Source of the DNA: the human T2T-CHM13v2.0 reference genome, Homo sapiens
Length of the DNA: 64,000 nucleotides
Strand: one strand, 5' to 3'
Assembly (NCBI RefSeq): GCF_009914755.1
Contig: NC_060929.1
Made by a program: the position numbers and the translations under genes. Below, in pieces: positions 31,066 to 37,677 of the stretch; the first letter of the stretch is position 1, and each line of letters begins with the position of its first letter. Under the pieces are notes generated by a model. That model ran no database searches. It was not told the origin of the DNA and saw only the letters and a list, made by a program, of their open reading frames with translations.

Positions 31066-31081
31066 CTCTACTGGGCTTCTT
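31066..31081. repeat. Target-site duplication, left copy (CTCTACTGGGCTTCTT)
   Basis: Exact 16-bp match to 37662-37677, directly abutting the distal poly(T). Confidence 0.95.
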
Positions 31082-31123
31082 TTTTTTTTTTTTTTTTTTT
31101 TTTCTTAATTCAGTGTGAGAGGC

Positions 31124-31129
31124 TTTATT
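31124..31129 (-). terminator. Polyadenylation signal AATAAA used by the read-through L1 transcript
   Basis: tttatt on the + strand, about 20 nt upstream (minus-strand sense) of the poly(A) starting at 31103. Confidence 0.85.
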
Positions 31130-31302
31130 TTTTAACACAGCACTTTAATCCATTTACATTTATTTTTGTAATTCACATATTTGAACATGTTCATACTTAA
31201 TTTTACTCATGAAAGGGTGAGCATGGATGTACTAAAAATGTAAGCAATAATTAATGAATGGTTACAAACTCATTATTTTACTTGTTTATGTTATATAGTG
31301 GT

Positions 31303-31445
31303 AATAACAATAATCACCAACGTATATGACCTTACTATGTGCCAGACACTGATCTATATATTCCTGTCTACATTAATTCATTTGATGCTTACAAAGTAAA
31401 CATTTACTACATAAAGAACCTAAGGCAAAGCATGAGTGAGAAAGT
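31303..31445 (-). mobile_element. MIR fragment inside the transduced segment
   Basis: Contains cttactatgtgccagacactg and cattaattcatttgatgcttaca, typical MIR motifs. Boundaries approximate. Confidence 0.55.
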
Positions 31446-31860
31446 ACTGAGTTAAATGTCTATGTTTTTAGTAGTTCTTTGTGAAATATTGTGATGGAAC
31501 TTACAGGTCTTCTTTGTGCTACTAAGAGAATGTCCTTCCAGTCTATATGCATTAAAATGATTTTATCCAGAATTGGTGATGAATTCTACTTAATGTCTTT
31601 CTACATCTATCAAATTAATCATGTATTCTTCTTTTTTTTTTTTTTTTTTTTTTTTATTATACTCTAAGTTTTAGGGTACATGTGCACATTGTGCAGGTTA
31701 GTTACATATGTATACATGTGCCATGCTGGTGCGCTGCACCCACTAATGTGTCATCTAGCATTAGGTATATCTCCCAATGCTATCCCTCCCCCCTCCCCCG
31801 ACCCCACCACAGTCCCCAGAGTGTGATATTCCCCTTCCTGTGTCCATGTGATCTCATTGT

Positions 31861-34800: not shown

Positions 34801-35688
34801 TCTACACACTGCTTTGAATGCGTCCCAGAGATTCTGGTATGTGGTGTCTTTGTTCTCGTTGGTTTCAAAGAACATCTTTATTTCTGCCTTCATTTCGTTA
34901 TGTACCCAGTAGTCATTCAGGAGCAGGTTGTTCAGTTTCCATGTAGTTGAGCGGTTTTGAGTGAGATTCTTAATCCTGAGTTCTAGTTTGATTGCACTGT
35001 GGTCTGAGAGATAGTTTGTTATAATTTCTGTTCTTTTACATTTGCTGAGGAGAGCTTTACTTCCAACTATGTGGTCAATTTTGGAATAGGTGTGGTGTGG
35101 TGCTGAAAAAAATGTATATTCTGTTGATTTGGGGTGGAGAGTTCTGTAGATGTCTATTAGGTCTGCTTGGTGCAGAGCTGAGTTCAATTCCTGGGTATCC
35201 TTGTTGACTTTCTGTCTCGTTGATCTGTCTAATATTGACAGTGGGGTGTTAAAGTCTCCCATTATTAATGTGTGGGAGTCTAAGTCTCTTTGTAGGTCAC
35301 TCAGGACTTGCTTTATGAATCTGGGTGCTCCTGTATTGGGTGCATAAATATTTAGGATAGTTAGCTCCTCTTGTTGAATTGATCCCTTTACCATTATGTA
35401 ATGGCCTTCTTTGTCTCTTTTGATCTTTGTTGGTTTAAAGTCTGTTTTATCAGAGACTAGGATTGCAACCCCTGCCTTTTTTTGTTTTCCATTTGCTTGG
35501 TAGATCTTCCTCCATCCTTTTATTTTGAGCCTATGTGTGTCTCTGCACGTGAGATGGGTTTCCTGAATACAGCACACTGATGGGTCTTGACTCTTTATCC
35601 AACTTGCCAGTCTGTGTCTTTTAATTGCAGAATTTAGTCCATTTATATTTAAAGTTAATACTGTTATGTGTGAATTTGATCCTGTCAT
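31861..35688 (-). CDS. ORF2: LINE-1 ORF2p (endonuclease, reverse transcriptase, Cys-rich C-terminal domain), 1275 aa
   Basis: Uninterrupted 1275-aa ORF. EN catalytic residues N14, E43, D145, D205 and H230 are present, along with the PIP-box region QTTIREYY, the RT FADD motif and the CWRGC...HCWWDC knuckle. Confidence 0.98.
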
Positions 35689-35751
35689 TATGATGTTAGC
35701 TGGTGATTTTGCTCATTAGTTGATGCAGTTTCTTCCTAGTCTCGATGGTCT

Positions 35752-36768
35752 TTACATTTTGGCATGATTTTGCAGCGGCTGGTACCGGTTGTTCCTTTCC
35801 ATGTTTAGTGCTTCCTTCAGGAGCTCTTTTAGGGTAGGCCTGGTGGTGACAAAATCTCTCAGCATTTGCTTGTCTGTAAAGTATTTTCTTTCTCCTTCAC
35901 TTATGAAGCTTAGTTTGGCTGGAAATGAAATTCTGGGTTGAAAATTCTTTTCTTTAAGAATGTTGAATATTGGCCCCCACTCTCTTCTGGCTTGTAGGGT
36001 TTCTGCCGAGAGATCTGCTGTTAGTCTGATGGGCTTCCCTTTGAGGGTAACCCGACCTTTCTCTCTGGCTGCCCTTAACATTTTTTCCTTCATTTCAACT
36101 TTGGTGAATCTGACAATTATGTGTCTTGGAGTTGCTCTTCTCGACGAGTATCTTTGTGGCGTTCTCTGTATTTCCTGAATCTGAACGTTGGCCTGCCTTG
36201 CTAGATTGGGGAAGTTCTCCTGGATAATATCCTGCAGAGTGTTTTCCAACTTGGTTCCATTCTCCACATCACTTTCAGGTACACCAATCAGACGTAGATT
36301 TGGCCTTTTCACATAGTCCCATATTTCTTGGAGGCTTTGCTCATTTCTTTTTATTCTTTTTTCTCTAAACTTCCCTTCTCGCTTCATTTCATTCATTTCA
36401 TCTTCCATTGCTGATACCCTTTCTTCCAGTTGATCGCATCGGCTCCTGAGGCTTCTGCATTCTTCACGTAGTTCTCGAGCCTTGGTTTTCAGCTCCATCA
36501 GCTCCTTTAAGCACTTCTCTGTATTGGTTATTCTAGTTATACATTCTTCTAAATTTTTTTCAAAGTTTTCAACTTCTTTGCCTTTGGTTTGAATGTCCTC
36601 CCGTAGCTCAGAGTAATTTGATCGTCTGAAGCCTTCTTCTCTCAGCTCATCAAAATCATTCTCCATCCAGCTTTGTTCTGTTGCTGGTGAGGAACTGCGT
36701 TCCTTTGGAGGAGGAGAGGCGCTCTGCGTTTTAGAGTTTCCAGTTTTTCTGTTCTGTTTTTTCCCCAT
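35752..36768 (-). CDS. ORF1: LINE-1 ORF1p RNA-binding/chaperone protein, 338 aa
   Basis: Uninterrupted 338-aa ORF, MGKKQNRKTGNSK...QNHAKM. REKG and ARR motifs are intact; YPAKLS reads FPAKLS. Confidence 0.98.
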   Translation of the reverse strand: MGKKQNRKTGNSKTQSASPPPKERSSSPATEQSWMENDFDELREEGFRRSNYSELREDIQTKGKEVENFEKNLEECITRITNTEKCLKELMELKTKARELREECRSLRSRCDQLEERVSAMEDEMNEMKREGKFREKRIKRNEQSLQEIWDYVKRPNLRLIGVPESDVENGTKLENTLQDIIQENFPNLARQANVQIQEIQRTPQRYSSRRATPRHIIVRFTKVEMKEKMLRAAREKGRVTLKGKPIRLTADLSAETLQARREWGPIFNILKEKNFQPRISFPAKLSFISEGERKYFTDKQMLRDFVTTRPTLKELLKEALNMERNNRYQPLQNHAKM

Positions 36769-37661
36769 CTTTGTGGTTTTATCTACTTTTGGTCTTTGAT
36801 GATGGTGATGTACAGATGGGTTTTCGGTGTAGATGTCCTTTCTGGTTGTTAGTTTTCCTTCTAACAGACAGGACCCTCAGCTGCAGGTCTGTTGGAGTAC
36901 CCTGCCGTGTGACCCTGCTGGGGGGTGCCTCCCAGTTAGGCTGCTCGGGGGTCAGGGGTCAGGGACCCACTTGAGGAGGCAGTCTGCCCGTTCTCAGATC
37001 TCCAGCTGCGTGCTGGGAGAACCACTGCTCTCTTCAAAGCTGTCTGACAGGGACACTTAAGTCTGCAGAGGTTACTGCTGCCTTTTTGTTTGTCTGTGCC
37101 CTGCCCCCAGAGGTGGAGCCTACAGAGGCAGGCAGGCCTCCTTGAGCTGTGGTGGGCTCCACCCAGTTCGAGCTTCCCGGCTGCTTTGTTTACCTAAGCA
37201 AGCCTGGGCAATGGCGGGCGCCCCTCCCCCAGCCTCGTTGCCGCCTTGCAGTTTGATCTCAGACTGCTGTGCTAGCAATCAGCGAGATTCCGTGGGCGTA
37301 GGACCCTCTGAGCCAGGTGTGGGATATAGTCTCGTGGTGCGCCGTTTTTTAAGCCGGTCTGAAAAGCGCAATATTCGGGTGGGAGTGACCCGATTTTCCA
37401 GGTGCGTCCGTCACCCCTTTCTTTGACTCGGAAAGGGAACTCCCTGACCCCTTGCGCTTCCCAGGTGAGGCAATGCCTCGCCCTGCTTCGGCTCGCGCAC
37501 AGTGTGCACACACACTGGCCTGCGCCCACTGTCTGGCACTCCCTAGTGAGATGAACCCGGTACCTCAGATGGAAATGCAGAAATCACCCGTCTTCTGCGT
37601 CGCTCACGCTGGGAGCTGTAGACCGGAGCTGTTCCTATTCGGCCATCTTGGCTCCTCCCCC
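36769..37661 (-). promoter_or_regulatory. L1HS 5'UTR: CpG-rich internal sense promoter plus antisense promoter
   Basis: 893-nt CpG-rich segment upstream of the ORF1 ATG, with an intact YY1 site (AAGATGGCC, 37641-37649 on the minus strand). Confidence 0.92.
37211..37426 (+). CDS. ORF0: LINE-1 antisense ORF0, 71 aa
   Basis: ATG at 37211 gives MAGAPPPASLPPCSLISDCC...RCVRHPFL, matching primate L1 ORF0 in the 5'UTR antisense strand. Confidence 0.9.
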   Translation: MAGAPPPASLPPCSLISDCCASNQRDSVGVGPSEPGVGYSLVVRRFLSRSEKRNIRVGVTRFSRCVRHPFL

Positions 37662-37677
37662 CTCTACTGGGCTTCTT
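37662..37677. repeat. Target-site duplication, right copy (CTCTACTGGGCTTCTT)
   Basis: Directly adjoins the first base of the L1 5'UTR and is identical to 31066-31081. Confidence 0.95.

What the first reader, a model, noticed from the sequence alone, without database searches (positions are those of the whole stretch)
31066..37677. Full-length L1HS that arrived carrying a 528-bp 3' transduction (two poly(A) tails inside one TSD)
Seen: no TSD lies next to the L1's own tail (31632-31655). The 16-mer adjoining the L1 5' end (37662-37677) recurs exactly at 31066-31081, next to a second pure poly(T) (31082-31103). An AATAAA (31124-31129) sits about 20 nt before that second tail. In minus-strand order: TSD, L1HS, A-tail, 528 bp of foreign DNA, A-tail, TSD. 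Established: L1's weak poly(A) signal is often read through, moving 3' flanking DNA to new sites. Inference: the whole 6,596-bp block (31082-37677) is one retrotransposition event. A repeat annotation would miss this and treat 31104-31631 as native DNA.
Basis: partly seen in the sequence, partly recalled or inferred. Interest (0 to 1): 0.85.

Follow-up and report, generated by a model that had tools for sequence, protein, structure and literature searches.

The report
Intact L1 carrying chr8 flank tag
A full-length, intact human L1 retrotransposon on chromosome 5 brought along 528 bases copied from chromosome 8 when it inserted; this is a clean but ordinary example of a well-known process called 3' transduction.

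Summary
The 16-mer CTCTACTGGGCTTCTT occurs in the window only at 31066-31081 and 37662-37677. It brackets, in minus-strand order, a 6,006-bp L1HS, 24 A, 528 bp of non-L1 DNA, and 22 A. An AATAAA lies 20 nt before the second tail.

The decisive test was possible. The 528 bp has one other copy in this genome, at chr8:27,069,245-27,069,772, with 526 of 528 bases identical. That copy sits in continuous unique DNA with no A-tails and no young L1 within 10 kb. Chr8 is therefore the donor locus, seen here as its empty allele. The parent L1 is absent from this haplotype.

The chr5 element has open ORF1 (338 aa) and ORF2 (1,275 aa). It corresponds to the catalogued GRCh38 reference element chr5:152,886,441-152,892,473, listed as 'intactFL', seen in 12 of 12 cell lines, with no published activity.

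One extra finding: a 13-bp 5'UTR deletion links it to only two other L1s, on chr14 and chr20.

The mechanism is textbook, so interest is low. I could not test ape or pangenome alleles, or whether any human still carries the chr8 parent.

The parts
31066..31081 (.). Target-site duplication (TSD), the copy on the 3' side in L1 sense (CTCTACTGGGCTTCTT). The last two T are ambiguous with the tail.
   Evidence: identical to 37662-37677, and these are the only two copies in the window.
31082..31103 (-). Second (terminal) poly(A) tail, 22 pure A in L1 sense. It was added after cleavage at the chr8 poly(A) site. Up to 7 of these A could be templated, because chr8 continues with AAAAAAA.
31104..31631 (-). 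The 528-bp 3'-transduced segment, copied from chr8:27,069,245-27,069,772 (+). It has 29% G+C and differs from chr8 at window positions 31472 and 31470 only.
   Evidence: 526 of 528 identical. The match stops exactly at both A-tracts.
31124..31129 (-). AATAAA poly(A) signal, most likely the one used by the read-through transcript. It ends 20 nt upstream of the second tail. An upstream AATAAA and an ATTAAA lie at sense positions 468 and 483 of the segment.
31632..31655 (-). The L1's own A-tract, 24 pure A. I infer it is the genomic poly(A) tail of the chr8 parent element, transcribed as internal sequence.
   Evidence: The origin is inferred.
31656..31860 (-). L1 3'UTR, 205 nt. It ends ...AGAGTATAAT and carries ACA at the subfamily-diagnostic trinucleotide (sense positions 5913-5915).
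   Evidence: That ACA marks the Ta subfamily is recalled, not from a call.
31861..35688 (-). L1 ORF2, open, 1,275 aa, with endonuclease and reverse-transcriptase domains.
   Evidence: Exo_endo_phos 5.1e-20 (residues 11-230); RVT_1 2.4e-47 (residues 518-773).
35752..36768 (-). L1 ORF1, open, 338 aa. A 63-nt inter-ORF spacer lies at 35689-35751.
   Evidence: Transposase_22 6.8e-66, Tnp_22_dsRBD 2.1e-44, Tnp_22_trimer 4.3e-32.
36769..37661 (-). L1 5'UTR, 893 nt, with the canonical full-length start GGGGGAGGAGCCAAGATGGCCG. It carries a 13-bp deletion near window position 36912 relative to the neighbouring full-length L1.
   Evidence: the first 37 nt are shared exactly by 335 sites in the genome; the deletion junction is found in only 3 L1 copies genome-wide.
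37662..37677 (.). Target-site duplication, the copy on the 5' side in L1 sense.

Best explanation
One target-primed reverse-transcription event inserted a read-through transcript of a parent L1HS that lay on chr8, with its tail abutting chr8:27,069,245 on the + strand.

Proposed sequence of events:
1. RNA polymerase II ignored the L1's own weak AATAAA.
2. It transcribed the parent's genomic A-tail and 528 nt of chr8 flank.
3. The transcript was cleaved and polyadenylated about 20 nt after a flanking AATAAA.
4. L1 ORF2p nicked chr5 at ...GGGCTTCTT/GGGAGG... on the window + strand.
5. It primed on the new tail and copied the whole RNA: 528 nt, then the A-tract, then the 6,006-nt L1.
6. Second-strand processing left a 13-16-bp target-site duplication.

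Shown here: the architecture; the chr8 origin and the direction of copying; the poly(A)-signal-defined 3' end; the intact coding capacity; and the identity with a catalogued GRCh38 reference L1HS.

Inferred: the read-through transcription itself, and the existence of the parent L1. The parent is absent from this haplotype, so it is either polymorphic or lost.
For: 1. A 16-nt exact direct repeat brackets the composite, not the L1 alone. Chance expectation is 5.8e-7 per 3 kb, and 0 of 2,000 shuffles exceeded 10 nt.
2. There are two pure A-tracts, 24 and 22 nt.
3. The 528 bp has exactly one other full-length copy in the 3.1-Gb assembly, on chr8, with 526 of 528 bases identical.
4. The direction is chr8 to chr5. 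The chr8 copy has no A-tails and is continuous with unique flanks. The chr5 flank 30300-31065 is single-copy, so this is not a segmental duplication.
5. The boundaries are RNA-processing boundaries. The 3' end lies 20 nt after AATAAA, and the 5' end abuts AAAA on chr8. In the 20.5-kb chr8 region, 3.6% and 1.3% of positions respectively have these properties, about 5e-4 jointly.
6. The element is a complete L1. Its 37-nt 5' end is shared by 335 genomic sites. ORF1 is 338 aa and ORF2 is 1,275 aa, both open and with the expected Pfam domains.
7. 3' transduction is common. 466 of 5,311 polymorphic L1 insertions carried a transduction and 82.2% of L1 transductions were 3' (PMC12350158, passages). 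Source elements absent from the reference are documented (PMC10191854, passages and Table S4 rows).
Against: - No L1 lies at the chr8 donor site in this assembly. Within 10 kb on either side there are only old L1 fragments, 69-76% identical to the chr5 element. The parent is therefore inferred, not seen.
- The parent is not among the 8p21 entries of a compilation of 264 known plus 12 new active sources. The two 8p21 entries differ in strand or position. This check rests partly on an indirect coordinate test.
- The chr5 nick site (TCTT/GG) and the inferred chr8 nick site (TTTT/C) are T-rich-then-break sites but not the consensus TTTT/AA. The consensus is recalled, not from a call.
- The empty chr5 allele could not be examined.
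Confidence: 0.9

Rival explanations
1. Template-switch chimera. L1 reverse transcriptase first copied an independent polyadenylated chr8 transcript that ended at the same poly(A) site. At its 5' end, or at the internal AAAA, it jumped onto the poly(A) tail of a separate L1 mRNA. This would give L1-A(n)-528-A(n) inside one TSD with no parent L1 on chr8.
For: The chr8 site carries no L1 in this assembly. The AAAA just upstream of the segment on chr8 could supply microhomology for a jump onto an A-tail. L1-mediated chimeric retrocopies exist (recalled, from no call).
Against: It requires a chr8 RNA that starts or switches exactly at an A4 run; only 1.3% of positions have that property. It also requires full-length copying of a second 6-kb template. 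Known chimeras mostly have small nuclear RNAs as the 5' partner (recalled). 3' transduction is far more frequent: 8.8% of polymorphic L1 insertions carry a transduction. I had no annotation or expression data for the chr8 locus.
Confidence: 0.06
2. Two separate insertions. An orphan retrocopy of the chr8 segment inserted first. A full-length L1 later landed exactly at its 5' edge.
For: Orphan transductions exist: 48 were reported in PMC12350158.
Against: A second insertion would carry its own TSD around the L1 alone. The longest shared word between the two L1 flanks is 5 nt and does not abut the junctions. The 16-mer instead pairs the L1 5' edge with the far end of the 528-bp segment.
Confidence: 0.01
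3. DNA-level duplication, or a chance repeat: the 528 bp is native chr5 DNA or a segmental duplicate, and the 16-mer is a coincidence.
For: None beyond the segment being unmasked in the repeat annotation.
Against: The homology stops exactly at two pure A-tracts. The chr5 flank is single-copy. Chance expectation for the 16-mer is 5.8e-7. The 3' end is defined by a poly(A) signal.
Confidence: 0.01

Closest known systems
Classical L1 3' transduction (Moran 1999, Goodier 2000 and Pickeral 2000 are recalled; the latter two were seen only as reference-list entries). Genome-wide catalogues include the TSDfinder scan of T2T-CHM13 (bioRxiv 10.1101/2021.07.12.451456, passages).
   Same: TSD-L1-A(n)-unique flank-A(n)-TSD. 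A downstream AATAAA is used in place of the L1's weak signal. The donor sequence is traceable to one other locus.
   Different: Nothing mechanistic. The donor site is empty in this assembly, so a pipeline that requires a parent element beside the donor sequence might rank this case low. I could not see that paper's Table S13 to check whether the locus is listed.
Source L1s absent from the reference or from a given genome, for example 8p21.2-1 in Nam et al. 2023 (PMC10191854 Table S4).
   Same: The parent is known only through the unique flank its offspring carry. The parent is polymorphic.
   Different: 8p21.2-1 is on the minus strand, with its transduced DNA at lower coordinates and more than 1 kb away. 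The parent inferred here is on the plus strand with an adjacent 528-bp tag. It is not one of the two 8p21 entries listed.
Transduction-tagged L1 lineages used to trace parent and offspring (the TS-ATLAS families are recalled; the title 'L1 Transduction Family', PMC6425141, was seen in the listing).
   Same: A unique tag marks descent.
   Different: Here the tag has a single bearer in this genome. The wider lineage is marked instead by a 13-bp 5'UTR deletion shared with two untagged copies.
L1-mediated template-switch chimeric retrocopies such as U6-L1 (recalled, from no call).
   Same: Two RNA-derived parts inside one TSD.
   Different: Those usually have a small RNA as the 5' part and no internal A-tract from a genomic L1 tail. 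Here the 5' part is a complete 6-kb L1 followed by 24 A.

Membership tests
L1HS (Ta) full-length element | Canonical full-length 5' end | tested here: met
   The window minus strand starts GGGGGAGGAGCCAAGATGGCCG. The first 37 nt are found exactly at 335 sites in the genome: 169 forward, 166 reverse, and 0 for the reversed control.
L1HS (Ta) full-length element | Open ORF1 (338 aa) and ORF2 (1,275 aa) with L1 RNA-binding, endonuclease and reverse-transcriptase domains | tested here: met
   An external record agrees: 'intactFL' for chr5:152886441-152892473 in PMC10879037, supplement file 2.
L1HS (Ta) full-length element | ACA at the 3'UTR diagnostic trinucleotide | tested here: met
   GCTAGATGAC-ACA-TTAGTGGGTGC at sense position 5903. 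The meaning of ACA (Ta) versus ACG (pre-Ta) is recalled. The record labels the element L1HS.
L1HS (Ta) full-length element | Retrotransposition competence | not testable with these tools
   The columns for published activity (RTn_assay, progeny_count) are empty for this locus. It is not in the 276-source table of PMC10191854.
L1 3' transduction | The TSD brackets L1 plus extra segment, not the L1 alone | tested here: met
L1 3' transduction | Two poly(A) tracts: one after the L1 and one after the extra segment | tested here: met
   24 and 22 pure A.
L1 3' transduction | A poly(A) signal 10-30 nt before the terminal tail | tested here: met
   AATAAA ends 20 nt upstream. Only 3.6% of chr8 positions have this property.
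L1 3' transduction | The extra segment maps to a single donor locus that lacks the tails | tested here: met
   chr8:27,069,245-27,069,772, 526 of 528 identical, no A-tails.
L1 3' transduction | A parent L1 immediately 5' of the donor segment, in the same orientation | tested here: inconclusive
   Absent in this single haplotype. Other haplotypes could not be searched. The held part of the 1,019-genome insertion table ends at chr2:79.6 Mb.
L1 3' transduction | An empty pre-integration allele at the target site | not testable with these tools
   No ape or other human assemblies were available. The element was detected in 12 of 12 cell lines and is in GRCh38, so empty human alleles may be rare or absent.
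Template-switch chimeric retrocopy | An independent donor transcript whose 5' end or switch point matches the junction, with no parent L1 at the donor locus | not testable with these tools
   No transcript annotation for chr8 was available. The absence of an L1 in one haplotype fits this reading but is not specific to it.

The most novel reading that the evidence does not exclude
The chr8 parent may be an uncatalogued L1HS that was active in the human lineage and is now either rare or extinct. Its only trace in this complete genome would be the 528-bp tag on chr5.

Together with a 13-bp 5'UTR deletion shared by just three copies (chr5, chr14, chr20), this would define a small multi-generation L1 lineage. 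Its living members, including the intact chr5 copy, could be tracked in pangenomes and tumours with two independent barcodes.
Probability: 0.35. Interest if true: 0.3.

Novelty: already known. Interest (0 to 1): 0.2.

Why it matters
The finding is mostly a matter of correct annotation. The 528 bp at 31104-31631 are not native chr5 DNA but a chr8-derived passenger. Alignments, liftovers and variant calls there have a 99.6%-identical paralogue. The insertion is 6,580 bp plus one TSD copy, not the roughly 6.04 kb that the repeat mask covers.

It also documents a parent-offspring link for an intact reference L1HS whose parent is missing from this genome. The tag and the 13-bp 5'UTR deletion give practical markers for tracing that lineage. 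Nothing here challenges current understanding of L1 biology.

Tried and rejected
- **Text searches for this locus or a chr8 8p21 source:** searches found nothing relevant. One search gave general transduction papers.
- **Catalogues I could not read:**
  - The published T2T repeat paper is not held, and the preprint's supplements are closed.
  - The supplement zip of PMC9311842 is too large.
  - Ebert 2021 and Szak 2003 are not held.
- **PMC12350169 supplements:** no relevant hit, and the file is cut.
- **PMC7058536 supplements:** no '8p21', '5q33', '5q32' or '8p12' strings.
- **PMC12350158 supplements:** no hit for CHM13 coordinates or for the TSD and junction motifs. These searches are uninformative, because the held table stops at chr2:79.6 Mb.
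- **Main texts of PMC4862182, PMC5668948 and PMC13009371:** neither locus is mentioned.
- **Is Nam's '5q33.1-2' this element?** Rejected. That row is pre-Ta with two stop-gains. It maps to the neighbouring full-length L1 at CHM13 chr5:153,604,206-153,610,218.
- **Is Nam's non-reference '8p21.2-1' the parent?** Rejected on strand and tag geometry. In addition, the 493-kb coordinate offset it would require predicts a fixed full-length L1 inside chr8:27,458,001-27,478,000, and none is there.
- **Wider chr8 scan to calibrate coordinates:** I cannot give a GRCh38 coordinate for the donor site or name the gene it lies in.
- **Offspring of the chr5 element:** none found in this genome. The tag has only two copies and the chr5 3' flank is unique.
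- **Whole-L1 genome search:** scored only 25 of 11,564 candidates, so the nearest-relative ranking from it is not exhaustive. The exact-junction pattern search is.
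Full report
**Observation**

- CTCTACTGGGCTTCTT lies at 31066-31081 and again at 37662-37677.
- The match extends no further on either side. The 16-mer and its 14-, 12- and 10-nt prefixes occur nowhere else in the window on either strand.
- Read on the minus strand, the order is: repeat copy; L1 (37661 down to 31656, 6,006 bp, starting GGGGGAGGAGCCAAGATGGCCG and ending AGAGTATAAT); 24 pure A (31655-31632); 528 bp of non-L1 DNA (31631-31104); 22 pure A (31103-31082); repeat copy.
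- An AATAAA (31129-31124 in sense) ends 20 nt before the terminal tail.
- The flanks of the L1 alone share no repeat. The longest common word in 40 nt on each side is 5 nt, and it does not abut the junctions.
- The chance expectation of the 16-mer within 3 kb is 5.8e-7. None of 2,000 shuffles gave more than 10 nt.
- Because two T and one C are ambiguous with the neighbouring tail and the L1 start, the true duplication is 13-16 bp.

**The decisive test**

I searched the 528 bp against the whole assembly. There were three matches:
- the segment itself;
- chr8:27,069,245-27,069,772 over all 528 bases;
- an 80%-identical 68-bp stretch on chr2, which I did not follow.

The chr8 copy differs at two positions, two bases apart (526 of 528 identical). 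On chr8 the segment is continuous with unique DNA:
- upstream it reads ...CAGGTAGAAAA|GAAGAATACATG...;
- downstream it reads ...CTGAATTAAG|AAAAAAATTGAAT...;
- it has no long A-tracts and no TSD;
- within 10 kb on either side there are only old L1 fragments, 69-76% identical to the chr5 element.

The chr5 flank beyond the duplication (30300-31065) is single-copy. The homology is therefore confined to the stretch between the two A-tracts. This fixes the direction of copying as chr8 to chr5.

The boundaries are the ones RNA processing would give. The 3' end sits 20 nt after AATAAA; only 3.6% of positions in the 20.5-kb chr8 region have that property. The 5' end abuts an A4 run; 1.3% of positions do. 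Jointly this is about 5e-4.

**What the element is**

- ORF1 (36768-35752, 338 aa) and ORF2 (35688-31861, 1,275 aa) are both open.
- They match the L1 ORF1 domains (Transposase_22 6.8e-66, plus the dsRBD-like and trimerisation domains) and the ORF2 endonuclease and RVT_1 domains (5.1e-20 and 2.4e-47).
- The first 37 nt occur exactly at 335 genomic sites.
- The 3'UTR has ACA at the diagnostic trinucleotide. From recall, this marks the Ta subfamily.

**Placing the element in other coordinates**

I found the next full-length minus-strand L1 at CHM13 chr5:153,604,206-153,610,218, which is 98.6% identical to this one. That neighbour equals hg19 5:152,450,542-152,456,568, called '5q33.1-2' (pre-Ta, with stop-gains) in PMC10191854 Table S4. 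It also equals GRCh38 chr5:153,070,982-153,077,008 in PMC10879037. The resulting offset places the window's L1 within 33 bp of the GRCh38 entry chr5:152,886,441-152,892,473.

That entry is recorded as follows:
- minus strand, L1HS, REF, 6,032 bp;
- 'intactFL' in L1Base;
- closest gene LINC01470;
- detected in 12 of 12 cell lines;
- mCG fraction 0.035 in K562 and 0.34 in 2102Ep, yet listed as 'not_expressed' in both;
- the columns for published retrotransposition assays and known progeny are empty.

The meaning of those two columns comes from the methods passage read. The L1 itself is therefore a known, probably fixed or high-frequency, intact reference element with no published activity. It is not among the 264 known plus 12 new active sources compiled in PMC10191854.

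**Mechanism**

The best explanation is classical 3' transduction (confidence about 0.9).
1. A parent L1HS lay on the + strand of chr8 with its tail abutting 27,069,245.
2. Its transcript read through the weak L1 signal, through the parent's genomic A-tail and through 528 nt of flank.
3. The transcript was polyadenylated after the flanking AATAAA.
4. It was inserted by target-primed reverse transcription at ...GGGCTTCTT/GGGAGG... on chr5.

The architecture, the origin and direction of copying, and the coding integrity are shown. The read-through itself and the parent are inferred.

The parent is absent from this single-haplotype assembly. It must be polymorphic or lost, because the empty chr8 allele is the ancestral state.

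Such parents are well documented. Seven non-reference germline sources were new in PMC10191854 alone. In 1,019 long-read genomes, 466 of 5,311 L1 insertions carried a transduction, 82.2% of L1 transductions were 3', and 208 source elements were traced.

**Rivals**

- *Template-switch chimera* (about 0.06). A separate chr8 poly(A) RNA is copied first, and reverse transcriptase then jumps onto an L1 mRNA tail. This gives the same architecture without a chr8 parent. The empty donor site and the AAAA microhomology fit it. It needs an RNA that starts or switches exactly at that A-run and then a full 6-kb second template, and such events are much rarer than transduction (relative frequency is recalled).
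- *Two nested insertions* (about 0.01). The TSD geometry excludes this.
- *DNA-level duplication or chance* (about 0.01). Searches exclude this.

**Age**

The two differences in 528 bp give a divergence of 0.38%, with a Poisson 95% range of 0.05-1.4%. They lie two bases apart and may be a single event. The divergence also includes chr8 allelic variation. It therefore says only 'young', which fits a human-specific L1HS present in all 12 cell lines, in GRCh38 and in CHM13.

**A side result: a small L1 lineage**

Relative to the neighbouring L1, the element lacks 13 bp of the 5'UTR near window position 36912. An exact search for the deletion junction finds only three sites in the genome:
- this element;
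- chr14:80,129,273-80,134,962, a copy 5'-truncated at L1 position 317;
- chr20:7,157,661-7,163,663, which is full length.

The chr14 copy differs from the chr5 copy at 14 of 5,690 positions. The chr20 copy differs at 37 of 6,003.

I polarised the differences with the pre-Ta neighbour as a single outgroup:
- chr5 has 7 private derived changes, chr14 has 6 and chr20 has 22;
- chr5 and chr14 share 5 derived states, against 1 shared by chr14 and chr20.

The chr20 copy therefore looks like an earlier branch, with chr5 and chr14 closer relatives. Neither relative carries the chr8 tag.
- The chr14 copy has a simple tail and the TSD AAAAAGATACTCC.
- The chr20 copy has an interrupted tail, A20-GACTCT-A27, before its TSD. 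This may be a very short transduction or a tail mutation.

With a single outgroup, and because some shared states may be subfamily markers, the branching order is tentative.

**Comparison with what is known, and novelty**

This is an ordinary member of a textbook class, sitting on a catalogued reference element. A TSDfinder-based scan of this same assembly reported 183 highest-confidence L1 3' transductions (preprint passages). I could not read its table, so I cannot say whether this locus is listed. A pipeline that demands a parent element beside the donor sequence could have ranked it low. My text searches found no printed mention of the locus or of a chr8 parent, but most relevant data sit in supplements I could not read.

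**Limits**

- No ape or other human assemblies were available.
- I have no transcript annotation for chr8.
- The meaning of the Ta diagnostic and the endonuclease consensus site are recalled rather than tested.

Noticed in passing
window ~36912 (minus strand; L1 sense position ~750): A 13-bp deletion in the L1 5'UTR. The exact deletion junction occurs at only three sites in the whole genome: this element, chr14:80,129,273-80,134,962 (5'-truncated) and chr20:7,157,661-7,163,663 (full length). It is a lineage marker independent of the transduction tag.
   Followed up: yes
L030 (chr20:7,156,661-7,164,163), 3' end of the L1: The chr20 relative ends in A20-GACTCT-A27 before its TSD (AAAAATTTTGTC). 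This could be a 6-nt micro-transduction or a mutated tail. Its 5' end starts at L1 position 4, after two extra bases.
   Followed up: no
window 31470 and 31472: The only two differences between the chr5 tag and its chr8 source lie two bases apart: A and T on chr5 in sense, G and C on chr8. This suggests one multi-nucleotide event or a chr8 allelic variant rather than two independent substitutions.
   Followed up: partly
outside the window: chr5:153,604,206-153,610,218 (L022/L023): A second full-length minus-strand L1 lies 185 kb away, 98.6% identical to the window's element. It corresponds to '5q33.1-2', listed as pre-Ta with two stop-gains and carried by 99.9% of individuals (PAF, the share of individuals with the element).
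   Followed up: partly
window 37806-37842: A (GT)n microsatellite with one interruption, about 130 bp from the L1 5' junction.
   Followed up: no
L003 (chr2:161,820,163-161,820,230): A weak 80%-identical match to positions 13-81 of the query (the + strand of the 528-bp segment). It is probably an old shared repeat fragment or AT-rich similarity.
   Followed up: no
GRCh38 chr5:152,886,441-152,892,473 (this element) in PMC10879037 supplement: The element's promoter is almost unmethylated in K562 (mCG 0.035) and partly unmethylated in 2102Ep (0.34), yet it is listed as not expressed in both.
   Followed up: no
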